Virus record (IMG/VR): IMGVR_UViG_3300032330_001609
Location: 5,975 to 69,974 of that record
Length of the DNA: 64,000 nucleotides
Origin: a virus
Lineage: Duplodnaviria; Heunggongvirae; Uroviricota; Caudoviricetes
Direction: 5' to 3' (one strand)
The stretch's first letter is position 1, and every line of letters begins with the position of its first letter. Shown in pieces: positions 7,461-25,323 of this stretch. Both the position numbers and the translations under genes were made by a program. Below the pieces are notes generated by a model that saw only the letters and a program-made list of their open reading frames with translations, searched no databases and had not been told where the DNA came from.

Positions 7461-10400
7461 ATGTCTAATCTAAACTATAAGAATCCTTTATCACCTCTTA
7501 TTGCGAACGGAAGTCAAACTTCTTTACGTACAAGTACTTTTGGAACAACCTTTAGTGTTCTTAACACCGGAGGTTTTATGGAGGTTTATACTCTAAATGA
7601 TTTAATATACTCAATACCGTCAGGTTCTAATGGGGATATTGAATTTTCCGGCAATACAATCCCTGTTCAATTATGGAAAGGAACCGGTAGTTCATTCTCT
7701 TTTGACACATTAACATTAAATTCTGATAATATTTCATCAGGAAGACGCCGTCTTGGTATGTTGGTATATGTTTATGAAACAGACCAAATTTATCAATATT
7801 CAATTGACAATTATAACACATTATGGTCTAATGCTTTAGCATCTTCAGGGCCGGGTGGTAATACAATAGTTATTTCAGATTTTGGAACAACTGTAAAAAA
7901 TAATACTCCGGAAGGTCAAACATTTATTGACACTTGGACAGGTTCAACTATTGAAGGTGTTAATGGTGTTACAAGACCAAATGCAAGATGGAGAAAATAT
8001 TCTTCAGCAACTGACATATATGTTACCGGTGGTACATATTTTTCTGCATCAACAACATTAGATTTATATAGAAATGACGGTGCAACCATATCTATCACAG
8101 GATTTACATCCGGTGGTGGAGGTACCGGTACGTCAGGTACGTCAGGTACTTCGGGTACAAACGGTACTTCAGGAGCTAATGGTACTTCCGGTACTAGTGG
8201 TATGGATGGAACATCAGGAACAAGCGGTGAAAATGGTACTTCAGGGGTTAATGGAACGTCAGGTGAAAGTGGTACTTCAGGGGTTAATGGAACATCAGGT
8301 GAAAGTGGTACTTCAGGTATTAGTGGAACATCAGGTTCAAGTGGTATTGATGGAACTAGTGGAAGTTCAGGTACTAGTGGTATTGATGGAACTAGTGGAA
8401 GTTCAGGTACTAGTGGTAATAACGGTACTTCAGGAATAAATGGAACATCAGGTGAAAGTGGTACTTCAGGTATTAGCGGAACTTCAGGCATTAGCGGAAC
8501 TTCAGGTTCAAGTGGAACTTCAGGTTCTTCAGGAACAAGCGGAACAAATGGTAGAAACGGTACTTCAGGGGTTAGTGGGACATCGGGTTTAAGTGGTACA
8601 TCGGGTTTAAGTGGTACATCAGGTTCAAGTGGTACTTCAGGTTCAAGTGGTGAGAGTGGTACTTCAGGTAATAGTGGAAATGATGGTTCTAATTCAAGTA
8701 GATGGGAATATAATATTAATATAAGTCCTTTTAATGACCCTAGTGGTAAAAGATTTTTGAGTGATTCTTCATTATCCGCAGTAACAAAATTTAGTATTAG
8801 TAAAATTAATATATATAATGTTAATTTTTATCAATGGTTAAACGAATTAAGTACGATATATAGTAATCATAATAGAGTATTTTTTCAAATAACAAAAGTT
8901 GGAGATAATTCAGTAAGTGCAAATTATTACGTTGACAATGTTATTGATAATACAAATTATTTTGATATTTCACTTTCGTATATTGCCGGTACAGGCACAT
9001 TAGTTGATAGAGATGTTTGTACAATTTCTTGGGTTTATAATGGTCTTAATGGAACATCAGGTTTATCAGGAACAAGTGGAACGTCAGGTGCTAATGGTAC
9101 GAGAGGAACTTCAGGTAATAGTGGTACTTCAGGAACAAGCGGATTAAATGGAACTTCAGGTACTAGTGGTACTTCAGGAATTTCGGGTACAAGTGGTACA
9201 AGTGGTGTTAATGGAACTTCAGGTACTTCAGGTACTAGTGGTAATAACGGAACTTCAGGGACTAGCGGGATTAATGGAACTTCAGGTACTGCGGGAACAA
9301 GTGGCACTGCAGGGTCTTCAGGTACAAGTGGTACAAGTGGTGTTAATGGAACATCAGGTACTAGTGGTAATAACGGAACATCAGGAACATCAGGAACATC
9401 AGGTATAAACGGTACATCGGGAACTTCAGGGACTAGCGGTTCAAGTGGAACTTCAGGTTCATCAGGGACTTCGGGAACATCAGGGACTGCAGGTTCTTCA
9501 GGTACTAGTGGTATTAATGGAACATCGGGAACAAGCGGTTCAAGTGGAACATCGGGAACTAGTGGTTCTTCGGGTACAAGTGGAAGTTCAGGAACAACAG
9601 GTACTTCAGGTTCTTCGGGTACTAGCGGTTCATCAGGAACTTCAGGGACAAGCGGAAGTTCAGGAACAAGTGGGACTGCGGGAACAACAGGTTCATCAGG
9701 TACTTCAGGAACGAGTGGGTCTTCAGGAACAAGCGGTCAAAATGGTATATCAGGAGGTCAGAATTTATTCTTCAACCAATCAATTGCTGAAACACCATCA
9801 CCATTTAGACAACTTAATAAATTAACATCAGGAGCTGCTCAACAGACGGTTGTTGTTAATATGACATCTAACCAACAGAATGTTTTAGTTAGTACAGGAT
9901 TTATTACAGCAACAGGAATACCAAATGCCTTGGTTATACCAAATGGTATATGGCATTCATATATTTATTTTACCAAAAATGCAAGTAATAATGATATTGA
10001 TTATTATTTTACTGTATCAAAATATACGACGGGTGGAACAACAACATTGTTGTTTACATCTGACGCTGCTCCTTTAGGTTGGGATACAAATAATACAACA
10101 CCGGTTGAGGTTAAAACAAATGGAGTTGCGACCACTGCGGTATTAGTACCATCAGATAGATTGATTGTTAATTTATATGTGAATAACAAAGATAATCAAT
10201 CTCGTTCTATTACATTCTATACGGAAGGAACACAACATTACTCTTATATTGTAACAACATTAGAGGCAGTTAGTGGAAGTAGTGGTACAAGTGGAACATC
10301 AGGTGCTAACGGAACATCAGGAACTAGTGGGACTGCGGGAACAACAGGTTCTTCCGGAACTAGTGGTACATCAGGTTCTGCAGGAACAAGCGGAACTTCA

Positions 10401-13265
10401 GGTTCAAGTGGTACTTCAGGAACATCAGGTGTTAGTGTAAGATTTAGTGGTTCATCAGTAACTTGTATTAATTTGAGTAGTTTAGTTATTGGAAATAATG
10501 TGCCACTGACAGGAACAACCAATTTATCTTATTCAGTTGGACAAGGTGTTTTAGTGGTATACGATGTTTCAAATTATTTTACAGGTAATATTATATCATA
10601 TAACTCAACAACCGGTGAATTTGTTATTAAAGTAACAGATGTTGTCGGTTCAGGTAATTTATGTTCTTGGACAATAAATTTACAAGGTTCTCCGGGAACA
10701 GATGGTTCATCGGGTACAAGTGGTACTTCAGGTTCATCAGGAACAAGTGGTAGTGCCGGTACTTCAGGTTCATCAGGAACCTCAGGTTCAAGTGGTACAA
10801 GCGGAACATCAGGGTCTTCAGGAACATCAGGAACAAGCGGCGCTAATGGTACTTCAGGTGCCAATGGAACGTCAGGTACAAGCGGTGCTAATGGTACATC
10901 CGGAACTTCAGGTTCATCAGGAACATCAGGTAGTTCAGGAACAAGCGGAACTTCAGGTGCTAACGGTACTTCGGGCACAAGTGGTTCTTCAGGAACTAGT
11001 GGGACATCAGGTATTAATGGAACTTCAGGCACATCAGGTTCAAGTGGTACTAGCGGTATTAACGGAACATCGGGTACTTCAGGAACAAGCGGTGCTAATG
11101 GTACATCCGGAACTTCGGGGTCATCAGGAACATCAGGTAGTTCAGGAACAAGTGGTGCTAATGGAACTTCAGGCACAAGCGGTTCTTCGGGTACAAGTGG
11201 TTCTTCAGGCACTAGTGGTGTAAACGGAACGTCAGGTACTTCAGGTATAAATGGAACAAGTGGCACAAGTGGTTCTTCAGGTACATCAGGTGCCAATGGA
11301 ACATCAGGAACAAGTGGTACTAGCGGTATTAACGGAACATCGGGGACAAGCGGAACTTCAGGTGCTAACGGTACTTCGGGGACAAGTGGTATAAACGGAA
11401 CATCAGGAACAAGCGGTACTTCAGGTGCTAATGGAACATCAGGAACAAGCGGTTCAAGTGGAACATCAGGTACTAGAGGAACATCAGGTAGTTCAGGTGC
11501 GAATGGGACTTCAGGAACATCGGGTACTAGAGGGACTTCAGGTTCATCGGGTTCATCAGGTACAAGTGGTACGGGTACATCGGGAACATCAGGTGTTAGT
11601 GGTTCAGGAACATCAGGAACATCAGGTGTGAATGGGACATCAGGAACATCAGGAGCAAACGGTATTGATGGTGTAGCCGGAGCTTCAGGAACTGCAGGAA
11701 CAAGCGGTTTAGGTACGTCAGGAACAAGTGGTTCATCAGGTACTAGTGGTACATCAGGTGCTAACGGGACTTCAGGAACATCCGGGGCTAACGGTACAAG
11801 TGGAACTTCAGGTTCTTCAGGTACAAGTGGAACTTCAGGAGAACAAGGTTATAAAGGAGGTTTACTATATCAATTTGGAGCGTCTACCACAGGAAAATTT
11901 TTCTTTAGTCCAAGTTCTCCAATTAGTAGTGTTAATCAAATATATATTAATGATACTACTTATGACGGTGCGTTAGTTAATAATTATATAATAAGTTGGG
12001 ATGATTCAACAGGAACGCCATCAGGTTATGTTATAATACAAAGTAACACTAATGGGGATTCAACATACGCAATTTTTGAATTAACCGGTGTTATTTCAAA
12101 TGCGGGTTATCAACAATTACAAGTTAGTTATGTTGATGGTACTTTACCAAGTACAAATGAATTATGTGTTATTAGTTTTTCAAGAACCGGTGATGTCGGT
12201 GGTTCAGGTACTTCAGGTACTTCGGGAACAAGAGGAACTTCCGGGTCATCAGGTTCGTCAGGTACAAGCGGAACTTCAGGAGCATCAGGTTTATCAGGAA
12301 CGAGTGGTACTTCGGGTGCTAACGGAACATCAGGTACATCAGGTACAAGAGGAACTTCAGGTTCAAGTGGTACTTCAGGTGCTAATGGAACTGCCGGAAC
12401 ATCAGGTATTAATGGTTCAGGAACTGCCGGGACATCAGGTGTTAGTGGTTCGGGTACTGCTGGAACATCAGGTACTTCAAGTTCATATGCTACTGCGGTG
12501 AACATAACAAATCAAACTACAGGGGCGGCATATTATTATCCTGTGTTTGTTTCTCAAGATGGTGCATCTCAAACTTTGTATGTTGACCACGAAATACCAT
12601 CATATTTTGGTTTAGCTTATTACCCATCTAGTAAGACTTTTGTTGTTGGTACTAATAATAGTGGGAACATTAGTACAGATTACGTTAATGCGACTTATTC
12701 TTTTCAAGTTCAAAATGTTGGTGCGGGTATGTACCAAGATGGTAGTAATTTAGCAATTGGCGATTATGGGGCAAACACTGTTTTAACAACATTGTGGGGT
12801 GAAGGTGGTGTCAATATTGGTGAATTAACGGGTGGTGGTCTTAAATTCAACGAAAGAACAACGTATAAACAACCAACTTCAAATATTGGTTATGGTGATG
12901 TTGTTTATTATGGTAGTTCAGGTGGTGCGTTAACCGCCGGTCTTATTTATTATTTGAATACTGCGGGTTCTTGGACTATAGCCAATTCAAACTTAGCGTC
13001 ATCTTCCAAATATATGTTGGGTATTGCGTTAGGAAGTTCGATATCTAGTGGTATGTTAGTTAGAGGTTATGCAAAATTTGCTGTGGGTAATTACTCAACA
13101 GTAACCATAGGACAAATACTTTATTTAGGAACAACAAACGGATATTTCCAATCAACAGCACCTGCATCAACAGGACAGGTGGTTAGAGTTGTTGGTTATT
13201 GTGTTGATGCGACAAATGATATTATTTATTTTTGTCCTGATAATACTTGGGTAGAAATCGCGTAA
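7461..13265 (+). CDS. Giant Gly-Thr-Ser triplet-repeat (collagen-like G-X-Y) fibre protein, 1934 aa
   Basis: Five blocks with Gly at every third residue (GTS/GSS/GAN/GIN) separated by globular domains; C-terminal domain GQILYL...TAP...VRVVGY typical of phage fibres. Confidence 0.8.
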   Translation: MSNLNYKNPLSPLIANGSQTSLRTSTFGTTFSVLNTGGFMEVYTLNDLIYSIPSGSNGDIEFSGNTIPVQLWKGTGSSFSFDTLTLNSDNISSGRRRLGMLVYVYETDQIYQYSIDNYNTLWSNALASSGPGGNTIVISDFGTTVKNNTPEGQTFIDTWTGSTIEGVNGVTRPNARWRKYSSATDIYVTGGTYFSASTTLDLYRNDGATISITGFTSGGGGTGTSGTSGTSGTNGTSGANGTSGTSGMDGTSGTSGENGTSGVNGTSGESGTSGVNGTSGESGTSGISGTSGSSGIDGTSGSSGTSGIDGTSGSSGTSGNNGTSGINGTSGESGTSGISGTSGISGTSGSSGTSGSSGTSGTNGRNGTSGVSGTSGLSGTSGLSGTSGSSGTSGSSGESGTSGNSGNDGSNSSRWEYNINISPFNDPSGKRFLSDSSLSAVTKFSISKINIYNVNFYQWLNELSTIYSNHNRVFFQITKVGDNSVSANYYVDNVIDNTNYFDISLSYIAGTGTLVDRDVCTISWVYNGLNGTSGLSGTSGTSGANGTRGTSGNSGTSGTSGLNGTSGTSGTSGISGTSGTSGVNGTSGTSGTSGNNGTSGTSGINGTSGTAGTSGTAGSSGTSGTSGVNGTSGTSGNNGTSGTSGTSGINGTSGTSGTSGSSGTSGSSGTSGTSGTAGSSGTSGINGTSGTSGSSGTSGTSGSSGTSGSSGTTGTSGSSGTSGSSGTSGTSGSSGTSGTAGTTGSSGTSGTSGSSGTSGQNGISGGQNLFFNQSIAETPSPFRQLNKLTSGAAQQTVVVNMTSNQQNVLVSTGFITATGIPNALVIPNGIWHSYIYFTKNASNNDIDYYFTVSKYTTGGTTTLLFTSDAAPLGWDTNNTTPVEVKTNGVATTAVLVPSDRLIVNLYVNNKDNQSRSITFYTEGTQHYSYIVTTLEAVSGSSGTSGTSGANGTSGTSGTAGTTGSSGTSGTSGSAGTSGTSGSSGTSGTSGVSVRFSGSSVTCINLSSLVIGNNVPLTGTTNLSYSVGQGVLVVYDVSNYFTGNIISYNSTTGEFVIKVTDVVGSGNLCSWTINLQGSPGTDGSSGTSGTSGSSGTSGSAGTSGSSGTSGSSGTSGTSGSSGTSGTSGANGTSGANGTSGTSGANGTSGTSGSSGTSGSSGTSGTSGANGTSGTSGSSGTSGTSGINGTSGTSGSSGTSGINGTSGTSGTSGANGTSGTSGSSGTSGSSGTSGANGTSGTSGSSGTSGSSGTSGVNGTSGTSGINGTSGTSGSSGTSGANGTSGTSGTSGINGTSGTSGTSGANGTSGTSGINGTSGTSGTSGANGTSGTSGSSGTSGTRGTSGSSGANGTSGTSGTRGTSGSSGSSGTSGTGTSGTSGVSGSGTSGTSGVNGTSGTSGANGIDGVAGASGTAGTSGLGTSGTSGSSGTSGTSGANGTSGTSGANGTSGTSGSSGTSGTSGEQGYKGGLLYQFGASTTGKFFFSPSSPISSVNQIYINDTTYDGALVNNYIISWDDSTGTPSGYVIIQSNTNGDSTYAIFELTGVISNAGYQQLQVSYVDGTLPSTNELCVISFSRTGDVGGSGTSGTSGTRGTSGSSGSSGTSGTSGASGLSGTSGTSGANGTSGTSGTRGTSGSSGTSGANGTAGTSGINGSGTAGTSGVSGSGTAGTSGTSSSYATAVNITNQTTGAAYYYPVFVSQDGASQTLYVDHEIPSYFGLAYYPSSKTFVVGTNNSGNISTDYVNATYSFQVQNVGAGMYQDGSNLAIGDYGANTVLTTLWGEGGVNIGELTGGGLKFNERTTYKQPTSNIGYGDVVYYGSSGGALTAGLIYYLNTAGSWTIANSNLASSSKYMLGIALGSSISSGMLVRGYAKFAVGNYSTVTIGQILYLGTTNGYFQSTAPASTGQVVRVVGYCVDATNDIIYFCPDNTWVEIA
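8121..12480 (+). repeat. Five blocks of degenerate 9-bp coding repeats (approx. 8121-8690, 9041-9760, 10271-10435, 10687-11850, 12200-12480)
   Basis: GGN-ACN-TCN/AGY units with heavy synonymous variation. Confidence 0.9.
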
Positions 13266-13269
13266 TGGT

Positions 13270-13971
13270 ATGGCAACAATAAATTCAGCAACAACAAGAG
13301 GTAGTGTAAAAGCAAGTGGAACTGATTTATCTTTTGGTAGTTGGGAAGATGTTAGAGATTTAACTAATGGTAATTCAGTTTCTGTTAATACAAATGATGC
13401 TCAAGCAGTTAGAGCGGGTCAAGTTATTAGTAAACTTGCAACCACTTGGACTTGTCATAGATATTTTATGGCTTTTGATACTTCATCGGTTACTTCAGTT
13501 CCGGGGTCAGCCACGTTATATGTTTATGGAAATACAACCGCGACAAGTGATTTAATAGCCGTTAAAGCGACTGCACCAACAACCTCAACTAATATTGCAA
13601 CAACAAATTATTCAAACATAGTTGGATATACTCCAGGTACATTATCACCTATGCAAGGATTTGTTACTGAATATTCCGGTTATATTGCTCCGGGGTGGAG
13701 TACAACCGGATATAACGCTATACCATTAACTGCTGCCGCATTATCTGATATGGATAGTTTAACAACACTTAAATTAGCATTGGTTAATTATACATACGAT
13801 TATTTATTAACAGGTTTTATTGGTACTACAGTTCAAACGGGTATTAACATTACTAATCCACCCTATATTGAATATACAGGATTTGGTGGGAAGATTTATA
13901 GTATATCATTGGCGTCAATTAGTAAAGTTGATGATATCTCTAAAGGTTCTATAAGTAGAATAAACACCTAA
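13270..13971 (+). CDS. Putative virion structural protein (fibre-associated)
   Basis: Thr/Ser/Ala-rich; R.FMAFDTS....SATLYVYG resembles a DNRLRE/CBM96-like pattern; starts 4 nt after the fibre gene. Confidence 0.55.
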   Translation: MATINSATTRGSVKASGTDLSFGSWEDVRDLTNGNSVSVNTNDAQAVRAGQVISKLATTWTCHRYFMAFDTSSVTSVPGSATLYVYGNTTATSDLIAVKATAPTTSTNIATTNYSNIVGYTPGTLSPMQGFVTEYSGYIAPGWSTTGYNAIPLTAAALSDMDSLTTLKLALVNYTYDYLLTGFIGTTVQTGINITNPPYIEYTGFGGKIYSISLASISKVDDISKGSISRINT

Positions 13972-16767
13972 TTAAATTAGGTGTTGTATTTGTGATATAA
14001 TCATTTCTGAAGTAATTGATTTATGACATTCAAATTGACGTTCAGTGTTTTTATGTTCCGGACACCAATTCCAATCCCCCTTGTCAAACTTAAATTGTGG
14101 TTTGTTCCAACATCCATTACATACTGAGTTATTAACAATTCGAGTACAATTTGATGTGAACTCGTGGTTATACTCCGTAAAATTAGAAATCATTACAACG
14201 TGTTTTCCAATTGCCCAAGACAACCAAGAAAGACCACTTGACAATCCTATGAAGAATTCACTATGGTGAATACAATTCAGAGTATTCTCAATTGAGGTGT
14301 CTTTTAGTTTGGTTACGTTATTTAAGTTACCACCATTTTTAGATACGTTAATAACTTTGTATCCTTTTGATACCAAATAATTAACTAACTCTTGCCATCC
14401 GGTGGGGTTATTCCATAATTTAAGACCTGCAGTTGATTCGTTTGCAATGGTAACATATTTACCCACAAATGGTCTTGTTTTAACTTTATAATCTATTGTT
14501 GGTTTTATTTCGGTATATTCTAAACCTAAAATATCTGTTATGGTTTGTTGTAATGGAATTACGTTTGGTTGTATTGGATGTTTGGTATCTTCTTCAAACC
14601 AACCTACTTTGTACATAGCAAATAGATTATGAACCATTACACCCGGTTCAACAAATTCAAGTTCCGGATAGGTGTTTCTAACTAACTTATTCCAAAACGT
14701 ACAAACAATCACTTCACAATTATGTTTCTTCTTAAATTCCAACACATACGGAATCCAAGCGATGGTATCACCTAATGAACTTGATTCAAAAGATATGAAT
14801 ACTCGTTTGTTGTTTAAGTTTAATTTATATTGGAATATTGTTTCATTCTCAGATTTAACTTTAATTAACCAATCTGTGTAATATTCTCGTGATACTTTTG
14901 TCCACATATTGGTTGTTAAGTCGCTAGTATGATGTAGAATATCATTATCGTAAAACTCAACTCTAAATCTTTTATCAGAGTTTCCTAATATTTCAAAAAA
15001 CGGGTTATTAACAAAGTGATAATTGTAATTGATATTTGGTTCAACTTTTATATTTGACTTAGACGTGTTATCAAAGTTATATTTTAATAGATTTTTTGTA
15101 TCTTCGGAATCATATTCTTTTTTAATTAACTTGGTAACCTCATACATTTTAATCATTCTTTTACAAATGGTTGTCCAATCAAATTTAGTTCTATTTTTTT
15201 GAGTTAAGTCAACATAGTGTTTATAGTTGGAGATGATATCACTAATTGATGATGCGACCGAATTAGAATCTCTATCAGTCACTATCATCCCGTCAATTTT
15301 TTGAGACCCCTCATATGTACCAACAACCGGAAGACCACAAGAAACCGCCTCAAGTAATGTTAGGTTTGGATGACCGGCTTCTAATATTGATGGATGTAAA
15401 AAGATTGAGTGTGATTTATATAATTCTAAAATTTCATCTTCTGTTAAATTTGTTAACAATAATGTTAACTTATCATATTCCAATAAATCTTGGTGATGTT
15501 CAAAGAAGGTGTGGTTGTTCTCCGGACCAGCGATTGTAATCGGTAAGTTTAATTTTTTTGCCGCCTCGATTGCATATCTAAAACCTTTTCTATCAAACGA
15601 TGCGTTACCACCAATTCCGTTATTAGCAATACATAACAATTTATGTTCAGGTCTGTATAAATTATCTGTCTTGAAAAAATCAACCTCAACACCGTGAGAT
15701 AAGTAAAACAATTTATCGGTCTCATCAAAATAATCAACAAGGTATTCTGCGTGACAGAATGAAATAACTGACTTTTTAATTGCCTCTAAATTTTGTTTGT
15801 AATTAAATGATTCTTTACCATAGTGAACTACGTGATGGTCGTGTAATGAAAAAATATAAGGTAGACCTCTTTCCGCCGCCTCTAATGCTAAATTAGCAAT
15901 ATGGATGTGAATAATGTCGGAGTTATCGGTTGTTGCTCCGTTAAGATATTGAATGGAACATTCTTCACCCAATGAATTAAATTCTTTATGATAATTCCAT
16001 ATTATTTTTTCAACAGCTCCCCAACCATTTGGTGGTATTGAAATTACTCCCGGTGTTACTTGTGTTATTCTCATTGTATGTTTCTTAATTCCCCACTTAT
16101 GTTCAAATTCTTTTGATAATAGGGTTGTTTTATAATATAGTTCTTTTTCGTTTATTAAGTTATGACTTTTAGATTCTAAGTGATGAACTATTGAATCTTT
16201 AACCAAAGCGTGTTTGATATTGTACTTGTTTAAGGTTTGCCCGTAATCATCATCTTGGTACCAAAATGAAAACTTCTCATCAAATCCTCCGATTAAATTT
16301 AGGACATCTCTTTTAACTAATATACACCATCCGTGTAATTCAACACAAGGTTTATATCCAAAATAAAGATTACCATCTTTATAGAGGTGGGAATAATGTT
16401 TCTGAGCAAATTCCGGCTCATATGGTGAGAACGATTTGATATCCGGATTTAAGTTGTACTCTCTTTCGATGTTATTCAACCAATCTTCAGTAAAGATTAA
16501 ATCATTGTTGATAATCAACACCCATTCACTTGTACAATAGGTTAAACCAATGTTTAAGAATTTGTTATAATTAAACTTTTCGTTTGGTTTTATTATTTGT
16601 AAATTTGGATAATCGTAAATAAATTCACAATTTTTATTGGATTCCATTAACTTTATGTTAAAATTATGGTCACCTTTTGATAATAACAAAGTTTCTATAG
16701 TTTGTTTTGTTAAACCATAGAAACTCTCATTATGTGTATTTGTTAAACAAATTACGTCAATATTCAT
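13972..16767 (-). CDS. Tri-domain glycosyltransferase: GT2 + GT4 + TibC/Aah-like autotransporter O-heptosyltransferase domain
   Basis: GT2: IINNDL, GGFDEKF..WYQDDD. GT4: PPNGWGAVE, RKG, EAGHPNLTLLEAVSCGLPVV. BAHT: SLGDTIAW, FIGLSSGLSWL, CNGCW...WCPEH...FEC (4-Cys Fe site). Confidence 0.85.
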   Translation of the reverse strand: MNIDVICLTNTHNESFYGLTKQTIETLLLSKGDHNFNIKLMESNKNCEFIYDYPNLQIIKPNEKFNYNKFLNIGLTYCTSEWVLIINNDLIFTEDWLNNIEREYNLNPDIKSFSPYEPEFAQKHYSHLYKDGNLYFGYKPCVELHGWCILVKRDVLNLIGGFDEKFSFWYQDDDYGQTLNKYNIKHALVKDSIVHHLESKSHNLINEKELYYKTTLLSKEFEHKWGIKKHTMRITQVTPGVISIPPNGWGAVEKIIWNYHKEFNSLGEECSIQYLNGATTDNSDIIHIHIANLALEAAERGLPYIFSLHDHHVVHYGKESFNYKQNLEAIKKSVISFCHAEYLVDYFDETDKLFYLSHGVEVDFFKTDNLYRPEHKLLCIANNGIGGNASFDRKGFRYAIEAAKKLNLPITIAGPENNHTFFEHHQDLLEYDKLTLLLTNLTEDEILELYKSHSIFLHPSILEAGHPNLTLLEAVSCGLPVVGTYEGSQKIDGMIVTDRDSNSVASSISDIISNYKHYVDLTQKNRTKFDWTTICKRMIKMYEVTKLIKKEYDSEDTKNLLKYNFDNTSKSNIKVEPNINYNYHFVNNPFFEILGNSDKRFRVEFYDNDILHHTSDLTTNMWTKVSREYYTDWLIKVKSENETIFQYKLNLNNKRVFISFESSSLGDTIAWIPYVLEFKKKHNCEVIVCTFWNKLVRNTYPELEFVEPGVMVHNLFAMYKVGWFEEDTKHPIQPNVIPLQQTITDILGLEYTEIKPTIDYKVKTRPFVGKYVTIANESTAGLKLWNNPTGWQELVNYLVSKGYKVINVSKNGGNLNNVTKLKDTSIENTLNCIHHSEFFIGLSSGLSWLSWAIGKHVVMISNFTEYNHEFTSNCTRIVNNSVCNGCWNKPQFKFDKGDWNWCPEHKNTERQFECHKSITSEMIISQIQHLI

Positions 16768-16768: not shown

Positions 16769-17314
16769 TTATCTTTTTATTCCCCAAAAATATAAATCAC
16801 AAGATGATGGTTCGTATTCAAAATTAAAATCTGAAAAAGTATTGTTAATCTCAATCACCGCTCGGATATCATCTTCTGTTAAGTTTTTATAGTAATTCGC
16901 CCATTTTTCATCAATTCCTTCTAAGAACGGTGCGTCGGCAGGATTAGACCTCAATGTTCCGTGTTCCGGTCTTCCGGTGGATGCACAAGTAAACACCATA
17001 AGTCCACCCGGTCTTAATAACCTTACCATATTTTGTAATGTTCTTGAATAGTACATATCGTGTTCAAAACATTCTGCGGATGTGACCACATCAAATTGAA
17101 ATCCTGAATCATATAAATGCCCCGGACAAACAACGTCCACATTTGGCCCCTGAGCTAAATCAACACCAACATAATAAAATGGATGGTCGAATACGTGTTT
17201 AATGTTTCCGTTTATATCTAATGACCCAATGTCCAATACTTTAACATCACTAAAATATCTTGGGTATGCTTGTTTAACTCTATTAAAAAAATCTTGTTGT
17301 AGTTCGTGAGCCAT
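16769..17314 (-). CDS. Class I SAM-dependent methyltransferase (probably glycan O-methyltransferase)
   Basis: VLDIGS.DING, YVGVD, FDVVTSAECFEHD, LLRPGG. Confidence 0.85.
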   Translation of the reverse strand: MAHELQQDFFNRVKQAYPRYFSDVKVLDIGSLDINGNIKHVFDHPFYYVGVDLAQGPNVDVVCPGHLYDSGFQFDVVTSAECFEHDMYYSRTLQNMVRLLRPGGLMVFTCASTGRPEHGTLRSNPADAPFLEGIDEKWANYYKNLTEDDIRAVIEINNTFSDFNFEYEPSSCDLYFWGIKR

Positions 17315-17315: not shown

Positions 17316-18293
17316 TTAATTAATCTCTATTATTCCTTTATCTTTTATTTTTTCTAAATTTTCTTCAGTCAATTCGTATGTTTTAATATAATCAATTGAA
17401 CCGTCAATGTCAAATACTGTTAATTTTAATGTGTTACCTAAAGTGAACTCTCGATAAAACCAATGTGATGGTAACATTAACTTATCCTCAATAACCTCAC
17501 CATTAAATTCCACCAATATTTTTTTAACTTCATCTTTTAATGTGTTGTTATGACAATATAAAACAGGGTATGATGGGTTGTGAACATTATAGAGTAATTC
17601 AAATATAAAACTCTCAACTCTAAAAATGTTAATTTGACTTTCGTTAAAGTATTCACTAGAGTGAACATCAATAATTAAAAAGTCATCTTCAAGATGTTTT
17701 AACTTATTGTAAAACGCCAATTCTAATGTATGACTCATTGATGTTTCATACCATTCATTCTCCGTAGTTGGAATCACAAATTTCACATTTAGATATTTTG
17801 GTGAAATCCCAAACAATTGAGTTTCGTATACGTATGAATTATCCTGTCTAAATGATTCCGGTTTGAAAAAGATACATTGTTTATTCTTACTAACCATCTC
17901 GTTTAATAAAGTAAGAAACTTATTAACATCATTTGGGGTGAAGATATTATCATTTTCAACAAAAAACACAAAATCATAGTTTTTTATTTCAGAAAACTTA
18001 AAAGAATTAAACATATTTTGACAAATTGGTAATGAATGTCTTGAATTGAATACTTTTATATGAAAGTTATGACTGTTAAACCAATAATACGGTGAACGGT
18101 CTTTTGGTGTTAATGTTTGATTCTTATCGTAAATGTAATAATCAACCATATCTTGTAATTCAACTGATACCGGATAATGACTAACAATCATAAAATCAAA
18201 CCCCAAACTTTTAAGGGATTCAATCTCTTGTTTTAACACCTCTTCTTTTTTAGTTGTATTTGGATATGCTCCGATAACAATTAGAACTTTCAT
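17316..18293 (-). CDS. Putative GT-A-like protein, paralogous to the middle domain of the upstream gene
   Basis: IGAYPNT...IESLK.LG...VSHYP...VDYYIYD aligns with IGTYPNT...IESVK.LG...VTHYP...VDYYVYD. Confidence 0.6.
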   Translation of the reverse strand: MKVLIVIGAYPNTTKKEEVLKQEIESLKSLGFDFMIVSHYPVSVELQDMVDYYIYDKNQTLTPKDRSPYYWFNSHNFHIKVFNSRHSLPICQNMFNSFKFSEIKNYDFVFFVENDNIFTPNDVNKFLTLLNEMVSKNKQCIFFKPESFRQDNSYVYETQLFGISPKYLNVKFVIPTTENEWYETSMSHTLELAFYNKLKHLEDDFLIIDVHSSEYFNESQINIFRVESFIFELLYNVHNPSYPVLYCHNNTLKDEVKKILVEFNGEVIEDKLMLPSHWFYREFTLGNTLKLTVFDIDGSIDYIKTYELTEENLEKIKDKGIIEIN

Positions 18294-20956
18294 TATTTTA
18301 TAAATGTTTTAACTTCTTTATCAATTAATGAATATCCATCCGCTTGAGTTGTGATTCGTTCTTTTAATATTCCCATATTTTTACCTGAGAAAATTATGTT
18401 AAAATAAGTGTCGGCACAATCCCACTTATGAGTTCTTAGTTTTTCAAACAAATATTCTCTTGTCTTTTTTGGGAACATAATACATTGTAACCCAATAATT
18501 TTATCAGTAATGAATAACAAATCTTGATTAGGTATTTCTCTCACTACGTTTGATTGAGGCCAACCAAAATCTAATGTCTTAACATCACCAAATGAAAAAT
18601 AGGAAATATCTTCATTGTTAATTATCTCACAAACTTTGGTGACTTTATTAACAAACTCATCAATCGGTACCTCAATAATACAATCACCCTCACAAACAAT
18701 TAAAAAATCCAATTGTGGGTCAAACTCAGATAAGATACCAATCTTAAATGATTCAAAACATCCATAGTGTGATGGTGTTAATGCGTATCCATAATCCTCA
18801 CTAGTTGGGTCAGTGTATTTTTCCATTCTCACATCAAATGGTCTAACACAATTATGACTAGGTGGTAATGATGTGTAAGGTTCATTCGTATGTAACACAT
18901 ATTTTATTCCATACTTCTCAACCTGTTGTACTGATTCTCTAGACAATCGTTCTCTCTCATCGTTAAGTGTTGTTTGTAAATGAACCAATTTAATGTTAAT
19001 AGGTTTTTTTAATCTAAAATAACCGTTCTTCTTAAATTCTTGAATGTTGGATGGGTTTAATGAATATTTTTCACTGGCATAAATCTCACCCTGTTCATAG
19101 AAGTTGATGTTAATAACTACTTCTTGACCTCTATACTCAAATTCTTGTATAAATTCTTTTTGTTCTTTAATGTTAAATTTTTTCTGATATGAAGTATGAT
19201 TCATAATGTGAATCTCAACTTCTCTATCATCATTATTGTAACTAAAAAAATACACCACCCACTTATTTGGGTCCGGTGTTTGTAGGATTGAATAGTATTC
19301 TGATAATGATTGAACCCCTCTACCTGAATTAACTAACAATGTTTCTTGAGGATTTGAAAATATTTCTAAGGTTGGTTCCGGATATAATTTATTATACATA
19401 AAATCTTCCAAGAAATTATGACAATTCAATAATTTACATTCACTACGATAATCATCGGTTGTTTTAATATAACCAAACTTATCCAAGAAGAAATCTGTTC
19501 TAAATCCCATTGAGGTTGTTTCAATACCCAATCCTAAATCTGTCTTTAAGGTACAAAGATATCCATCTCTATTTGATAATCTATTAAACAAATGATTAAC
19601 ATTGTTTGTATCGTTAAGATTTAAGATTACATCGTAGGTGATATAGAATACTTTATTAAAACCAAGATTCTTTGCCTCACTAAACCCATTTATCAAATTG
19701 GTTAATACCGGAAAAGATTGATTCAAATCTTTTAACCCGTTTAGATTTATCTCAACATCATATGACGCTTGGTGATTATAAAACGTAGTATAATAAGAAT
19801 GTTCCGTCTTTGGGTTGTTCTCATCATACACATAGTAATCAACATTCTTACGTATTTCATCTGATGCCGGGTAATGTGTAACCAACATTATCTTTCTACC
19901 CAAATGTTTTACTGACTCAATACATTCTAAGGTTAATTGTTCTCTTGTTTTTGTATTAGGATATGTTCCAATAATGATTAACTCATCATCAGTGCTTTCA
20001 ACCGGAGGGTTTAATAGTTCCACTAATTTATTGGTATCAGTTTCAATATCTCCGGTTAAGAAAGATATGTTGTCGTAATTGTCGTACTTACCACAATATA
20101 CGTCCAAATTATACATCATCATTGGAATTTGATACTCCAACGCCTCTTTCAAGGCAATCGGGTTTAATTCCTTGTTATTTCTATCTCCTTTGGATGGGAA
20201 TAAAAATAAATCACAAGCTTCAATAAATGTTGACACATCACCACGTTCACCCCAAATAATACAGTTGTCCGTTTTTTCATTCAATAACGGTTCCCAATAA
20301 CTTTTGAAGTTATCCGCCTGATTACCCAAGAAATGGAATTTAATTTTATGGTCTTTTAATCTTTTTGCAATCTCAAAAATATATCCCTGATTCTTTCTTT
20401 GGGTGAACAACCCAACATTTAATACGTGTTTGTAAGATGGGTCAAATTCTAATTTTTGTTGTGAACCACCTTTGTCTTTATATTTTTGGTCAACGGGATA
20501 TTCAACAATATCATATGGAATATCATAAATCGAATATCTAAACGCATTAAACGCACTTACGAAAATAAATTTATCCGGGAACCATCGTTTAGAGGTTACA
20601 GGGAAACTAGAATCGTGAGTAGTCTCAAATATCGTATACGACCTATTCTCATCATACAATGTTTTGGTGATAAGGTCATCCATAAAAAACTCAGGGAATT
20701 CTTCCATACTAAGAATGTCCGGATTAAATTCTCTTACTATATCTAATAAGTCAAATTTGTTATCCCCCAACGAATGGAAGTTATCTCCCAATAGTTCTTG
20801 TATCTGATTTCTTTGAACCACATAATTCCAAGCAACAAAGTTATACTCAACACATTTTATAATGTATTCGTTTTTAATTAGTTTGATTTTGTTTAAGGTT
20901 ACCTGAGGTGCCCCACCGGTACTTAAATGGGGGGTTATAATTAAAACTTTTTTCAT
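18293..20956 (-). CDS. Multidomain glycosyltransferase: GT4 + GT-A-like + GT25-like
   Basis: HLSTGGAPQ, NVGLFTQRKNQ, DLFLFPS...ELNPIALKEA (GT4); HYGCFES...LIVCEGD (GT25-like). Confidence 0.8.
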   Translation of the reverse strand: MKKVLIITPHLSTGGAPQVTLNKIKLIKNEYIIKCVEYNFVAWNYVVQRNQIQELLGDNFHSLGDNKFDLLDIVREFNPDILSMEEFPEFFMDDLITKTLYDENRSYTIFETTHDSSFPVTSKRWFPDKFIFVSAFNAFRYSIYDIPYDIVEYPVDQKYKDKGGSQQKLEFDPSYKHVLNVGLFTQRKNQGYIFEIAKRLKDHKIKFHFLGNQADNFKSYWEPLLNEKTDNCIIWGERGDVSTFIEACDLFLFPSKGDRNNKELNPIALKEALEYQIPMMMYNLDVYCGKYDNYDNISFLTGDIETDTNKLVELLNPPVESTDDELIIIGTYPNTKTREQLTLECIESVKHLGRKIMLVTHYPASDEIRKNVDYYVYDENNPKTEHSYYTTFYNHQASYDVEINLNGLKDLNQSFPVLTNLINGFSEAKNLGFNKVFYITYDVILNLNDTNNVNHLFNRLSNRDGYLCTLKTDLGLGIETTSMGFRTDFFLDKFGYIKTTDDYRSECKLLNCHNFLEDFMYNKLYPEPTLEIFSNPQETLLVNSGRGVQSLSEYYSILQTPDPNKWVVYFFSYNNDDREVEIHIMNHTSYQKKFNIKEQKEFIQEFEYRGQEVVININFYEQGEIYASEKYSLNPSNIQEFKKNGYFRLKKPINIKLVHLQTTLNDERERLSRESVQQVEKYGIKYVLHTNEPYTSLPPSHNCVRPFDVRMEKYTDPTSEDYGYALTPSHYGCFESFKIGILSEFDPQLDFLIVCEGDCIIEVPIDEFVNKVTKVCEIINNEDISYFSFGDVKTLDFGWPQSNVVREIPNQDLLFITDKIIGLQCIMFPKKTREYLFEKLRTHKWDCADTYFNIIFSGKNMGILKERITTQADGYSLIDKEVKTFIK

Positions 20957-23075: not shown

Positions 23076-24323
23076 ATGAAGATATTTGTACAGATAGCAT
23101 CCTATCGTGACCCCCAACTTATTCCAACGATTAAATCAATGTTGGAAAACGCAAAAAAACCTAAAAACTTAGTAATTGGTATTTGTCGTCAGTATCACCC
23201 GGAAGATGGGTTTGATGACTTATCTGAATATGCTAACGATAAACGATTCAGAGTAGTTGATGTTTTATATTCAGATGCTAAAGGTGTTTGTTGGGCGAGA
23301 AATCAAGTACAACAATTATATGGTGGTGAGGAGTATACCCTTCAAATTGATTCTCATATGAGATTTGAAAAAGATTGGGATGATACTTTAATCAAAATGA
23401 TTAAACAACTTCAAAAGAAAGGTTTTGAAAAACCATTATTAACAGGATATGTATCTTCCTTTGACCCTGATAATGACCCGGCGATGAGAGTTAGAGAACC
23501 TTGGAGAATGTCTTTTGACAGATTTATTCCTGAAGGTGCCGTATTCTTCTTACCTGAAACTATTCCGGGATGGCAACAAATGACTGAACCGGTTACCGCA
23601 AGATTCTATTCTGCACACTTTGCATTTACATTAGGTAAATTTAGTGTTGAGGTTCAACACGACCCTGAGTTCTATTTCCACGGAGAAGAAATCTCAATTG
23701 CTGTTAGAGCGTTTACTCACGGATATGATTTATTCCATCCACATAAAGTTGTTATTTGGCACGAATATACTCGTAAGGGTAGAACCAAACAATGGGATGA
23801 TGATAAGGATTGGGTAAACAAAAATAACTTATCTCACAAAAAGAATAGACAATTATTCGGTATGGATGGAGAAGAAGTTACTATGGATTTTAGTAAATAC
23901 GGATTCGGTACCGAAAGAACTCTTAAAGACTATGAAATCTACTCAGGTCTTAAATTTTCAAATAGAGCGGTACAACAATATACATTAGACAAACACTATC
24001 CACCAAACCCTACCATTTATAATACTGAGGAAGAATGGTTAGCAAGTTTTGCAAGTATCTTCAAACATTGTATTGATATTTCATTCCATCAAGTTCCGGA
24101 ACCTGATTATGACTTTTGGGTTGTTGCTTTCCACGATGAAAATGATAATACATTATTCAGAAAAGATGCCGACATAAATGAGATTAATATGATGAAGAGA
24201 GACCCGGATGGGTATTGTAAAGTTTGGAGAGAATTCCAAACGGTACATAAACCAAAATATTGGGTTGTTTGGCCTCACAGTACATCAAAAGATTGGTGTG
24301 AAAGAATAACGGGTAATTTATAA
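23076..24323 (+). CDS. GT60-family polypeptide alpha-N-acetylglucosaminyltransferase (Gnt1/OGNT-like)
   Basis: IFVQIASYRDP, KGVCWAR, LQIDSHMRF...WD, FHGEEI...RAFTHGYD, V.WHEY.R. Confidence 0.85.
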   Translation: MKIFVQIASYRDPQLIPTIKSMLENAKKPKNLVIGICRQYHPEDGFDDLSEYANDKRFRVVDVLYSDAKGVCWARNQVQQLYGGEEYTLQIDSHMRFEKDWDDTLIKMIKQLQKKGFEKPLLTGYVSSFDPDNDPAMRVREPWRMSFDRFIPEGAVFFLPETIPGWQQMTEPVTARFYSAHFAFTLGKFSVEVQHDPEFYFHGEEISIAVRAFTHGYDLFHPHKVVIWHEYTRKGRTKQWDDDKDWVNKNNLSHKKNRQLFGMDGEEVTMDFSKYGFGTERTLKDYEIYSGLKFSNRAVQQYTLDKHYPPNPTIYNTEEEWLASFASIFKHCIDISFHQVPEPDYDFWVVAFHDENDNTLFRKDADINEINMMKRDPDGYCKVWREFQTVHKPKYWVVWPHSTSKDWCERITGNL

Positions 24324-24326
24324 GAT

Positions 24327-25322
24327 TTGAAAAAAAATATTAAAATTTCAAGAGCGGGATTTCCGGGTGTTGGTAATTTTTCTTGGATGAATTATTTAAC
24401 TAAAATTTTATCTAAAAAATATAATGTAGTTATTGATAGTAAAAATCCGGATTTAATACTATATTCAAATTTACACTATAACTCAAATCAACTTGACTAT
24501 TATACTAATGATTTAACCAAAGGTGTTGATGATTATGATAATAATGTTATAAAAATATTTATTTCGGGTGAGGCAAACCCTGGTTACTTATCACACATTA
24601 ATAAGGGTGAAAATTATTACGCATTAGGGTATGAACATATTGACCATCCAAGATATTTAAGATTCCCTACTTATGTTTTAGACGCGTTTGTGTTACATAA
24701 TGAGGGGGAAATGTTTGATGAACCGTTTGATTGGTTAATTGATAGGTCAAAAATTGGTGTATCAATTGAAGATAAATTACATTTTTGTAGTGTTGTCCAA
24801 GCTAGTGAGAATAATGATAGAGGTAAAATGTTTGATTTAATATCCTCTAAATACTATATTAAGTCATCAGGACCTTGGAGACCTACAATCCAAAATAACG
24901 AGGAATTAAATAGACATAAATATCATAACTACAGCAACCCTGATTATATGGGTAAGATAGATGGATTAACATATAAAGATAAAATTAATTTTTTCAAAAA
25001 TTGTTATTTTAATTTATCTTTTCAATATACAAACACAAATTATTTAACTCAAGAAAAAATAATACATTCTTTCGCGTCAAATTCAATCCCAATTTTTTAT
25101 GGTAATAATAATATATTAGATGAAGGATTTAATCCGGACTCATTTATTAATGTTCATAACTATAAAACATTTGAGGAATGTTTTAATCACATTAATGAGA
25201 TTTATGAAAATAAAAACTTATTAAATTCATATTTAACCGCACCAATTTTTGTTGACAATAAATTACCAATATATTTTGAGGAAAGTTATATGTTAAATTT
25301 TTTAGAAAACATTTTGAAATAA
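24327..25322 (+). CDS. GT10 alpha-1,3-fucosyltransferase-like protein
   Basis: NPDLILYS, ISGEAN, YLRFP, FCSVV, YLTQEKI..SF....IPIFYG, FNPDSFIN; matches the Helicobacter FucT layout. TTG start. Confidence 0.75.
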   Translation: MKKNIKISRAGFPGVGNFSWMNYLTKILSKKYNVVIDSKNPDLILYSNLHYNSNQLDYYTNDLTKGVDDYDNNVIKIFISGEANPGYLSHINKGENYYALGYEHIDHPRYLRFPTYVLDAFVLHNEGEMFDEPFDWLIDRSKIGVSIEDKLHFCSVVQASENNDRGKMFDLISSKYYIKSSGPWRPTIQNNEELNRHKYHNYSNPDYMGKIDGLTYKDKINFFKNCYFNLSFQYTNTNYLTQEKIIHSFASNSIPIFYGNNNILDEGFNPDSFINVHNYKTFEECFNHINEIYENKNLLNSYLTAPIFVDNKLPIYFEESYMLNFLENILK

Positions 25323-25323
25323 T

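What the first reader, a model, noticed from the sequence alone, without database searches (positions are those of the whole stretch)
13972..16767. TibC/Aah-type Fe-binding heptosyltransferase domain fused to GT2 and GT4
The C-terminal ~350 aa keeps the catalytic LGD and the CxxC...C...C iron site of the dodecameric bacterial autotransporter heptosyltransferases. Fusion to two more GTs suggests a prime-and-extend assembly line in one polypeptide. The donor may not be ADP-heptose if the host lacks it.
Basis: partly seen in the sequence, partly recalled or inferred. Interest (0 to 1): 0.8.

Follow-up and report, generated by a model that had tools for sequence, protein, structure and literature searches.

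The report
Phage TibC-like fibre glycosyltransferase fusion
An uncultured jumbo phage encodes one soluble protein that joins three sugar-transferring enzymes, the last a true but modified relative of the E. coli adhesin-glycosylating enzyme TibC. It sits beside the phage's only Gly-Thr-Ser collagen-like fibre gene, so it most likely sugar-coats that fibre, though no sugar has been measured.

Summary
ORF 13972-16767 (minus strand, 931 aa) is GT2 + GT4 + a C-terminal TibC/Aah domain. That domain scores 290 bits on TIGR04414 (cut-off 200), E 1e-52 to PDB 4RAP, and its model has TM 0.84-0.86 to TibC against about 0.5 to GT9 WaaC. LGD (D667) and C883-x2-C886-x15-C902-x11-C914 match TibC residue for residue.

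It is not a textbook TibC. All 39 phage representatives lack 10 residues of the beta-hairpin thumb that builds the TibC dodecamer. They carry Thr or Ile where TibC has the adenine-contacting Arg-286. They form their own clade.

The likely target is the adjacent 1934-aa Gly-Thr-Ser fibre, the only such protein in the 215-kb record. Such fibres lie downstream and convergent in 17 of 36 phage lineages and upstream in 0 of 34. Conversely, 17 of 37 viral records picked only by a (GTS)4 DNA pattern carry the enzyme.

Prime-and-extend is plausible but untested. The donor sugar is open: this record has no heptose-pathway genes, while some related phages carry a split HldE-like pair.

This scan has noted the same system on other DNA (202 notes, at least 144 genomes). 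I found no paper describing it.

The parts
13972..16767 (-). Whole ORF P0001, 931 aa: GT2 + GT4 + TibC-like domain. No signal peptide or hydrophobic segment, so a soluble cytoplasmic protein.
16093..16767 (-). GT2 (GT-A) domain, aa 1 to about 225, with NND and FDExF...DDD motifs. Related to glycosyltransferases of Gordonia and Mycobacterium phages (27-35% identity).
   Evidence: motifs read
15130..16074 (-). GT4 (retaining GT-B) domain, aa 232-546. E463 and E473 are invariant in 37 homologues. Structural neighbours are MshA, BshA and PimA.
15040..15129 (-). Low-confidence linker, aa 547-576.
   Evidence: pLDDT below 50 at 548-575
13975..15039 (-). TibC/Aah-like (BAHT) domain, aa 577-931: N-terminal beta-barrel followed by the catalytic GT-B.
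14767..14775 (-). LGD, aa 665-667. D667 corresponds to the TibC catalytic base D110.
14026..14121 (-). Four-Cys 'iron finger', C883, C886, C902 and C914 (TibC C339/342/358/370). Invariant in 39 phage and 4 bacterial sequences.
14281..14283 (-). T829, at the position of TibC Arg-286 (the adenine N1 contact). It is Thr in 36 of 39 phage copies, Ile in 3 of 39, and Arg in nearly all classical bacterial copies (two have Cys).
14296..14346 (-). Site of the missing beta-hairpin thumb: 18 residues where classical BAHTs have 28. The model shows no hairpin here.
7461..13265 (+). 1934-aa Gly-Thr-Ser collagen-like fibre, the probable acceptor. It has 315 G-X-Y triplets in 7 blocks (X = Thr 60%, Y = Ser 75%), 230 [T/S/N]-S-G sites and only 28 Pro. 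It is the only such protein in the 215-kb record.
13270..13971 (+). 233-aa ORF of unknown function between the fibre and the enzyme. No family hit and no homologue in the related loci.
13963..13985 (.). 10-bp palindromic hairpin exactly where the convergent genes meet. It is terminator-like on both strands.
16769..17314 (-). SAM-dependent methyltransferase, 181 aa, the next gene upstream in the same operon.
17316..18293 (-). 325-aa protein with no family. It is conserved beside the enzyme in 19 related loci.
18293..20956 (-). P0002, 887 aa: N-terminal GT4 plus two unassigned regions (a GT25-like lead only). Its type of GT4 is the one fused directly in front of the TibC-like domain in many other phages.
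23076..29033 (+). Further glycosylation genes: GT60 (23076-24323), GT10-like (24327-25322), Methyltransf_24 / rhamnosyl-O-methyltransferase-like (26733-27338) and HtrL_YibB-like (27348-29033).

Best explanation
P0001 is a soluble, cytoplasmic, three-module protein O-glycosyltransferase made by a jumbo myophage to decorate its own virion fibre.

Its C-terminal module is a TibC/Aah homologue with the full catalytic set: base D667, phosphate-binding T779 and K783, sugar-contacting W848, and a Cys4 metal finger. It most likely attaches the first sugar to the Ser hydroxyls of the [T/S/N]-S-G motif, which recurs about 230 times in the adjacent 1934-aa Gly-Thr-Ser collagen-like protein. The fused GT4 (retaining) and GT2 (inverting) modules, together with the neighbouring methyltransferase and P0002, then most likely extend and methylate the glycan.

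Unlike TibC, the module lacks the thumb hairpin, so it probably does not form the dodecameric ring. It more likely works as a monomer or a back-to-back dimer tethered to its partner modules.

The first sugar is most simply a heptose from an ADP-heptose-type donor taken from the host pool, but this step is the least certain.

Shown: homology, fold, conserved residues, the fusion, the synteny. Inferred: the acceptor, the order of action, the oligomeric state, the sugar.
For: Homology and fold: TIGR04414 at 290 bits against a cut-off of 200. TibC 4RAP at E 1e-52. Model pLDDT 91 with TM 0.84-0.86 to TibC.

Catalytic set: the D110, T226, K230, W305 equivalents and all four Cys are invariant in 39 phage representatives that are 52-70% identical to the window's domain.

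Synteny: a G-[T/S]-S repeat protein lies downstream on the convergent strand in 17 of 36 non-redundant phage lineages with at least 5 kb of flank, and upstream in 0 of 34 (Fisher p = 1.4e-6). Similar G-[T/S]-[S/T] repeat proteins also lie within 8 kb of more distant bacterial and MAG homologues, including one on a 2.7-Mb Methylococcales contig.

Reciprocal test: 17 of 37 viral records chosen only for a (GTS)4 DNA pattern hold a TIGR04414 match, 16 of them above the cut-off, although most records are fragments.

The fibre is the only GTS protein in the 215-kb record and sits about 700 nt from the enzyme.

Acceptor chemistry: TibC modifies Ser, not Thr, in NSGG and TSAA contexts, and accepts a free Gly/Ser/Thr-rich peptide (PMC4358343).

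Fusion: over 1000 metagenomic homologues have the GT4+BAHT (about 700 aa) or GT2+GT4+BAHT (about 930 aa) architecture. The N-terminal GT4 of P0002 is the type fused to BAHT in 18 other lineages.

Localisation: P0001 has no signal peptide or membrane segment.
Against: No glycan has been observed on any such fibre.

About half of the phage lineages with enough flank show no GTS protein within 10 kb. In the cultured Microcystis phage Mel-JY01 the neighbour is a Ser-rich non-collagen structural protein, so the acceptor class is broader than GTS or differs between lineages.

Arg-286 is Thr here. In TibC the R286A mutant is dead or crippled, and Arg-286 is said to explain ADP specificity.

The 215-kb record has no SIS/GmhA, HldE-kinase, cytidylyl/adenylyl-transferase, NTP-transferase or epimerase gene. 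It is only 73% complete.

The thumb needed for TibC activity in vivo is absent.

The full-length model gives no confident arrangement between domains (pTM 0.45), so nothing structural supports a hand-over between modules.
Confidence: 0.62

Rival explanations
1. Same target, different chemistry. The TibC-like module uses a nucleotide sugar other than ADP-heptose, either a different nucleotide or a hexose. The clade has rebuilt the adenine pocket, and many hosts of these phages may make no ADP-heptose.
For: The Arg-286 position is Thr in 36 of 39 phage copies and Ile in 3 of 39. It is a hydrophobic residue in the Methylococcales-type clade and Arg in nearly all classical copies (two have Cys). 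This record has no heptose-pathway gene. Four of six related phage records that are at least 90% complete have no HldE-kinase-like gene, and none of five searched has GmhA.
Against: T226, K230, W305 (the heptose O4 contact) and the Ser at the P300 position (as in Aah) are all kept. A split HldE-like pair, whose best NCBIfam matches are heptose-1-P adenylyltransferase (106 bits) and heptose-7-P kinase (114 bits), both below their cut-offs, occurs in related BAHT-bearing phages. The TibC paper itself calls the Arg-286 hydrogen bond weak.
Confidence: 0.35
2. Parallel rather than serial action. The three modules each glycosylate protein directly at different sites (for example Ser at Y, Thr at X, or other virion proteins), so there is no prime-and-extend chain.
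For: The GT2 module is related to glycosyltransferases encoded next to the capsid gene in Mycobacterium phage Omega and its relatives. PMC12619734 cites work showing glycans on the capsid and tail-tube proteins of Mycobacterium phages. The modules are joined by flexible linkers with no predicted interface. The fibre offers both Thr and Ser in every triplet.
Against: GT4 and GT2 enzymes usually act on sugar or lipid acceptors. The operon also holds methyltransferases and at least four more GT genes, which suits a multi-sugar glycan.
Confidence: 0.2
3. The enzyme targets the host, not the virion. It modifies host surface proteins or LPS during infection, for example to block superinfection.
For: Classical BAHTs act on bacterial surface adhesins (PMC4358343). 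Phage GTs that alter host serotype are known (cited in PMC12619734).
Against: The gene lies inside the fibre and tail module. The conserved convergent pairing with GTS fibre genes, and the reciprocal enrichment, point to a phage target. No autotransporter-like gene was noted nearby. There is no membrane anchor for LPS work.
Confidence: 0.08
4. The TibC-like module is catalytically dead and serves as a fibre-binding chaperone or scaffold.
For: The thumb and Arg-286, both needed for TibC activity, are missing.
Against: The catalytic Asp, both phosphate ligands, the sugar-contacting Trp and 50 other positions are invariant across sequences 52-70% identical to the window's domain. That pattern indicates selection on catalysis.
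Confidence: 0.04

Closest known systems
TibC-TibA and Aah-AIDA-I of E. coli (bacterial autotransporter heptosyltransferases, BAHT; TIGR04414; PDB 4RAP and 4RB4; PMC4358343)
   Same: Same fold, including the N-terminal beta-barrel (TM 0.84-0.86). Same catalytic Asp, T/K phosphate ligands, sugar-contacting Trp and Cys4 finger with identical spacing. About 30% identity. The enzyme gene lies next to a gene for a long repetitive surface protein rich in Gly, Ser and Thr. Many Ser acceptors per substrate.
   Different: No beta-hairpin thumb, so the dodecamer is unlikely. Arg-286 is replaced by Thr. The domain is fused behind a GT2 and a GT4. It is encoded by a phage. The neighbour is a proline-free G-T-S collagen-like fibre, not a beta-helical autotransporter. 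The gene pair is convergent rather than co-directional. The donor is unknown.
GT9 LPS heptosyltransferases WaaC and WaaF
   Same: Distantly related GT-B fold. ADP-heptose enzymes.
   Different: Only TM about 0.5 and E 1e-7. 16-20 bits on TIGR02193. They have no beta-barrel and no Cys4 finger, and they act on lipid-linked acceptors.
Mycobacteriophage virion glycosylation (Freeman et al. 2023, as cited in PMC12619734; the paper itself is not held)
   Same: Phage-encoded GTs that glycosylate the phage's own structural proteins. The GT2 module of P0001 is 27-35% identical to GTs of Mycobacterium and Gordonia phages. In phage Omega the gene follows the major head protein and precedes a methyltransferase.
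   Different: Those phages have no TibC-like module, and their targets are capsid and tail-tube C-termini, not collagen-like repeats. The Omega methyltransferase is not detectably related to the one here.
Database entries for viral TibC-like proteins: A0A6J5SVC1 'Glycosyltransferase Aah/TibC [uncultured Caudovirales phage]', A0A7S9XE01 (Virus NIOZ-UU157), and the Microcystis phage Mel-JY01 protein WWT39291.1 annotated 'methyltransferase FkbM'
   Same: The same phage-type domain at the C-terminus of multi-GT proteins (TM 0.89-0.91 with 42-52% identity; 41% identity).
   Different: These are automatic names only. I found no paper that studies them. Mel-JY01 is cultured, and its neighbour is a Ser-rich non-collagen structural protein.

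Membership tests
BAHT (TibC/Aah; TIGR04414) | Sequence match to the family model above its curated cut-off | tested here: met
   289.8 bits against a cut-off of 200. 290.5 bits in the genome search.
BAHT (TibC/Aah; TIGR04414) | TibC protomer fold: N-terminal flattened beta-barrel plus an atypical GT-B | tested here: met
   AF2 model with pLDDT 91. Eight strands at domain residues 12-81, followed by the GT-B. TM 0.84-0.86 to 4RAP.
BAHT (TibC/Aah; TIGR04414) | Catalytic base Asp-110 (the LGD motif) | tested here: met
   D667, invariant in 39 phage copies.
BAHT (TibC/Aah; TIGR04414) | Sugar-nucleotide ligands Thr-226, Lys-230 and Trp-305 | tested here: met
   T779, K783 and W848, all invariant.
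BAHT (TibC/Aah; TIGR04414) | Arg-286 contacting adenine N1 (the basis of ADP specificity) | tested here: not met
   T829 here. Thr in 36 of 39 and Ile in 3 of 39 phage copies. Arg in nearly all classical bacterial copies, with two exceptions that have Cys.
BAHT (TibC/Aah; TIGR04414) | Four-Cys iron finger (C339, C342, C358, C370) | tested here: met
   C883, C886, C902 and C914 with identical spacing, invariant. Which metal is bound cannot be tested here.
BAHT (TibC/Aah; TIGR04414) | Beta-hairpin thumb with a hydrophobic tip (F265/V266) that builds the dodecamer | tested here: not met
   A 10-residue deletion in all phage copies: an 18-aa segment against 28 aa in classical BAHTs. The model has no hairpin there.
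BAHT (TibC/Aah; TIGR04414) | Dodecameric ring assembly | not testable with these tools
   Only single chains can be folded. Loss of the thumb argues against a ring. F912, equivalent to F368, is kept.
BAHT (TibC/Aah; TIGR04414) | Adjacent autotransporter (AIDA-type beta-helix) substrate gene | tested here: not met
   The neighbour is a G-T-S collagen-like fibre. Classical plasmid copies do sit before AIDA-repeat genes.
BAHT (TibC/Aah; TIGR04414) | ADP-heptose as donor, with O-linkage to Ser | not testable with these tools
   Indirect evidence only: no pathway genes in this record, and HldE-like genes in some relatives.
GT9 LPS heptosyltransferases | Match to PF01075 / TIGR02193 above cut-off and closest fold WaaC/WaaF | tested here: not met
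   PF01075 at 20.6 bits, below the cut-off of 22. TIGR02193 at 16-20 bits against 185. TM 0.5 or less.
GT4 (retaining GT-B) | Pfam Glycos_transf_1 / Glyco_trans_1_4 above cut-off, with conserved Glu pair | tested here: met
   45.7 and 48.6 bits. E463 and E473 are invariant in 37 homologues, with 9 residues between them rather than 7. Structural neighbours are MshA and BshA.
GT2 (inverting GT-A) | Pfam Glycos_transf_2 above cut-off, with Asp motifs | tested here: met
   24.8 bits against a cut-off of 23.3. phrog_22332 at E 2e-17. NND and DDD motifs are visible. Their conservation was not quantified.

The most novel reading that the evidence does not exclude
The phage clade is a non-dodecameric, thumbless offshoot of the BAHT family with a rebuilt nucleotide pocket. 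Together with its fused GT4 and GT2 partners and the methyltransferases, it lays a methylated oligosaccharide on nearly every third residue of a proline-free, nearly charge-free Gly-Thr-Ser triple helix. On this reading the glycan, not hydroxyproline or salt bridges, holds a half-micrometre viral collagen together and sets its surface properties. That would be a new way of stabilising collagen and a new, widespread class of virion glycoprotein.
Probability: 0.2. Interest if true: 0.8.

Novelty: new variant of a known kind. Interest (0 to 1): 0.62.

Why it matters
Protein glycosylation by BAHT enzymes has so far been studied as a virulence trait of a few proteobacterial adhesins.

Here the same catalytic machinery turns up, remodelled, in a very abundant group of aquatic phages. 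At least 500 IMG/VR contigs carry the domain. There are 1555 clusters at 50% identity. At least 599 contigs have a near-identical sheath. The enzyme is physically and statistically tied to giant Ser-rich collagen-like fibres.

If confirmed, three things would follow:
- Virion glycosylation would be a common feature of environmental phages, with consequences for host recognition, stickiness and particle stability.
- There would be a natural experiment on how a ring-forming enzyme works without its ring.
- There would be a compact one-polypeptide toolkit for dense O-glycosylation of simple G-T-S repeats.

The cultured Microcystis phage Mel-JY01 carries a homologue, so the idea can be tested at the bench.

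Tried and rejected
Genomic context of homologues therefore came from the search for related loci instead.
- Megablast of 8 kb of the window against GenBank phages found nothing.
- The first literature query, 'TibC + phage', returned only unrelated uses of the letters. Three further queries found no relevant paper. The Freeman 2023 paper is not held.
- The IQ-TREE run did not finish in time. The tree is FastTree with SH-like support and a midpoint root only.
- I tested whether the methyltransferase next to P0001 is the same as the one next to the related GT in Mycobacterium phage Omega. There is no detectable similarity, so I dropped that parallel.
- I looked for a T4-type late promoter (TATAAATA). 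It is not enriched over shuffles. Sigma-70-like sites are not enriched either, so I make no claim about timing of expression.
- I tried to build a control set from sheath relatives. They turned out to be one very close lineage (84-97% identity, mostly short contigs). That makes them useless as a base-rate control, so the enrichment has no matched control.
- phmmer against the PDB gave nothing for the 325-aa protein or for P0002. The GT25 hint for the P0002 C-terminus is only an Atlas lead.
- The host could not be assigned. The nearest 'cellular' hits are MAG contigs labelled Sediminibacterium and Chitinophaga. These may be mis-binned phage DNA.
Full report
WHAT IS THERE

The window is bases 5975-69974 of a 214,776-bp IMG/VR virus record that CheckV rates 73% complete. 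It is a jumbo myophage: it has a tail sheath (45736-49398), a family-B-like DNA polymerase (34974-38012) and a helicase (40454-42259). It resembles no GenBank phage at the DNA level.

The finding's coordinates are one clean ORF on the minus strand, 13972-16767, 931 aa. It has no signal peptide or hydrophobic segment.

Pfam, PHROGs and NCBIfam divide it into three modules:
- a GT2 module (aa 1 to about 225);
- a GT4 module (aa 232-546);
- a C-terminal module that matches TIGR04414 'autotransporter strand-loop-strand O-heptosyltransferase' at 289.8 bits against a cut-off of 200.

The same stretch scores only 16-20 bits on LPS heptosyltransferase I, and it falls below the Pfam GT9 cut-off.

IS IT REALLY TibC-LIKE?

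Yes.
- phmmer against all PDB sequences returns TibC (4RAP, 4RB4) at E about 1e-52 and nothing else of note.
- A model built on 40 phage sequences has pLDDT 91 and pTM 0.89.
- Foldseek places TibC first, at TM 0.84-0.86 and E 6e-31. The GT9 enzymes WaaC and WaaF follow at TM 0.5 or less and E 1e-7.

The model includes the eight-stranded N-terminal barrel that is peculiar to TibC.

I mapped the window protein onto TibC using the residue roles given in the TibC paper (PMC4358343):

| TibC residue | Role | P0001 residue |
|---|---|---|
| T226, K230 | beta-phosphate ligands | T779, K783 |
| W305 | heptose O4 contact | W848 |
| P300 | stereoselectivity position | S843 (Ser, as in Aah) |
| C339, C342, C358, C370 | iron ligands | C883, C886, C902, C914 (identical spacing) |

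All of these except S843 are invariant in 39 non-redundant phage copies that are 52-70% identical to the window's domain. S843 is Ser in 37 of 39 and Gly in 2.

WHERE IT DEPARTS FROM TibC

There are two differences, both clade-wide.

First, the beta-hairpin thumb is cut by 10 residues in every phage copy. Its F265/V266 tip joins TibC dimers into the 12-mer, and mutating the tip leaves inactive dimers. The segment is 18 residues in the phage copies against 28 in classical BAHTs, and the model shows no hairpin there.

Second, TibC Arg-286 hydrogen-bonds adenine N1, and its Ala mutant is dead or crippled. That position is Thr in 36 of 39 phage copies and Ile in 3. It is Arg in nearly all classical bacterial copies I aligned; two have Cys.

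A FastTree of 120 domains puts the 40 viral rows, plus two MAG contigs, in one clade (SH-like support 100). The classical autotransporter-linked clade (E. coli, Pantoea, Burkholderia, Bradyrhizobium, Selenomonadaceae) is separate, also with support 100. Intermediate groups lie in between: a Methylococcales type with a 24-residue segment and a hydrophobic residue at position 286, and an Arenicellales type with a 19-residue segment and Arg.

The tree is quick and midpoint-rooted, so I use it only to say that the phage type is a distinct subfamily.

THE FUSION

The architecture is common, not a one-off. A search of 5.8 billion proteins gave 1293 hits. The best 120 are either about 930-aa GT2+GT4+BAHT proteins or about 700-aa GT4+BAHT proteins, on contigs up to 641 kb.

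In IMG/VR at least 500 contigs carry the domain. It occurs in several forms:
- alone (382-390 aa);
- behind one to several other modules (up to about 1600 aa);
- in front of another module.

The library clustered at 50% identity holds 1555 representatives at E of 1e-3 or better.

The full-length model folds each module well (mean pLDDT 83) but gives no confident mutual arrangement. pTM is 0.45 and the linkers fall below pLDDT 50. The picture is three beads on a string.

The GT4 module resembles retaining enzymes such as MshA, BshA and PimA. The GT2 module is 27-35% identical to glycosyltransferases of Gordonia and Mycobacterium phages. In phage Omega that gene follows the major head protein.

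THE LIKELY ACCEPTOR

Immediately downstream, on the opposite strand, lies a 1934-aa protein (7461-13265). It has 315 G-X-Y triplets in seven blocks. X is Thr in 60% of triplets and Y is Ser in 75%. There are 230 [T/S/N]-S-G sites and only 28 prolines. It is the only such protein in the whole 215-kb record.

Across 48 phage lineages clustered at 90%:
- 17 of the 36 with at least 5 kb of downstream flank have a G-[T/S]-S repeat protein there, always on the convergent strand;
- none of the 34 with upstream flank has one upstream (Fisher p = 1.4e-6).

Similar G-[T/S]-[S/T] repeat proteins lie within 8 kb of more distant homologues in bacterial and MAG contigs, one of them on a 2.7-Mb Methylococcales contig.

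I also ran the test in the other direction. I took 37 viral records of at least 30 kb, selected only because they contain a (GTS)4-G coding pattern. Of these, 17 hold a TIGR04414 match, 16 above the cut-off, even though most are fragments. I have no matched control for that rate.

The acceptor chemistry also fits. TibC modifies Ser, not Thr, in NSGG and TSAA contexts. It also accepts a free peptide, GGVQHVSSGGSATSSTINSGG.

The pairing is not universal. About half of the lineages show no GTS protein within 10 kb. In the cultured Microcystis phage Mel-JY01 the neighbour is a Ser-rich structural protein without G-X-Y periodicity.

THE CASSETTE

P0001 is the last gene of a minus-strand operon that also encodes:
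- P0002 (887 aa; GT4 plus two unassigned regions);
- a conserved 325-aa protein with no family;
- a SAM methyltransferase.

Relatives keep this order. The type of GT4 found in P0002 is the module fused directly to BAHT in 18 other lineages, which links the two proteins functionally.

A 10-bp palindrome sits exactly where the convergent genes meet.

Further along the plus strand come a GT60, a GT10-like gene, a second methyltransferase and an HtrL/YibB-like gene. The phage therefore invests in at least seven or eight transferase domains around its fibre genes.

THE DONOR

The record has no SIS/GmhA, HldE-kinase, cytidylyl/adenylyl-transferase, NTP-transferase or epimerase gene. It is incomplete, however.

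Two related BAHT-bearing phage records encode a 139-aa protein followed by a 247-aa protein. The best NCBIfam match of the first is heptose-1-phosphate adenylyltransferase (106 bits). The best match of the second is heptose-7-phosphate kinase (114 bits). This looks like a split HldE, and both scores are below the equivalog cut-offs.

The kinase-like gene occurs in 4 of 32 such records, and in 2 of the 6 that are at least 90% complete. None of five records searched has GmhA.

An ADP-heptose-type donor is therefore plausible for the clade. It would have to come from the host in this phage, and the Arg-286 change keeps another donor in play. I could not assign the host.

VERDICT

The domain belongs to the BAHT superfamily by sequence and fold, but three textbook features are not met: the thumb, Arg-286 and an autotransporter partner. 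I therefore file it as a new variant, not a plain member.

Databases already carry automatic 'Aah/TibC' names on a few viral proteins. This scan has noted the system on many other genomes. I found no paper on it.

Noticed in passing
window 5812-5819, 21017-21030, 23026-23033, 29049-29056, 29516-29523, 39523-39530, 40432-40439, 50985-50992, 51961-51968, 53925-53932: TATTTATA, read on the coding strand, sits about 4-50 nt (mostly 10-25 nt) upstream of the start codons of many fibre and tail genes on both strands. The total count of the octamer in the window is not above shuffles, so this may be a late-promoter motif or just AT-rich spacer.
   Followed up: partly
L167:1082-2611 (related complete 326-kb phage, G002) and L166: Three adjacent genes: a cupin-like protein (136 aa), an HldE domain-II-like adenylyltransferase (139 aa) and an HldE domain-I-like kinase (247 aa). 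This is a split, reordered HldE in BAHT-bearing phages, with no GmhA found.
   Followed up: partly
L177:4750-8430 (Microcystis phage Mel-JY01, PP395634.1): The 1226-aa protein annotated 'methyltransferase FkbM' contains a GT4 domain and a C-terminal TibC-like domain (PF21129 TibC_1st plus PF01075; 41% identical to the window's domain). It follows an 18%-Ser 'structural protein'. This is a cultured system in which virion glycosylation could be tested.
   Followed up: partly
L118:9187-10083 (Methylococcales MAG contig of 2.67 Mb): A chromosomal BAHT-like gene of the intermediate type lies next to a 298-aa protein with 39 Gly-Thr-Ser triplets. The enzyme and GTS-repeat pairing may therefore also exist in ordinary bacteria.
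   Followed up: partly
window 5835-6410: The 191-aa ORF just upstream of the fibre genes has a weak, sub-threshold match to the BclA C-terminal domain (E 0.0055). BclA is the glycosylated collagen-like exosporium protein of Bacillus. The ORF has homologues fused to a G-T-S protein in L074.
   Followed up: no
window 24000-30000: A low-GC stretch (0.27 against about 0.32 elsewhere) holds the GT10-like, methyltransferase and HtrL/YibB-like genes. It may be a separately acquired sugar-modification island.
   Followed up: no
P0124, P0130, P0132, P0145: Some representative proteins match the TibC-like domain in 3-4 separate stretches. They may hold tandem or interrupted copies of the domain in one polypeptide.
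   Followed up: no
window 48400-49395 (sheath C-terminus): At least 599 IMG/VR contigs encode a relative of the sheath C-terminus, and the best 80 are 84-97% identical. This phage lineage therefore appears to be very abundant in the sampled environments.
   Followed up: no
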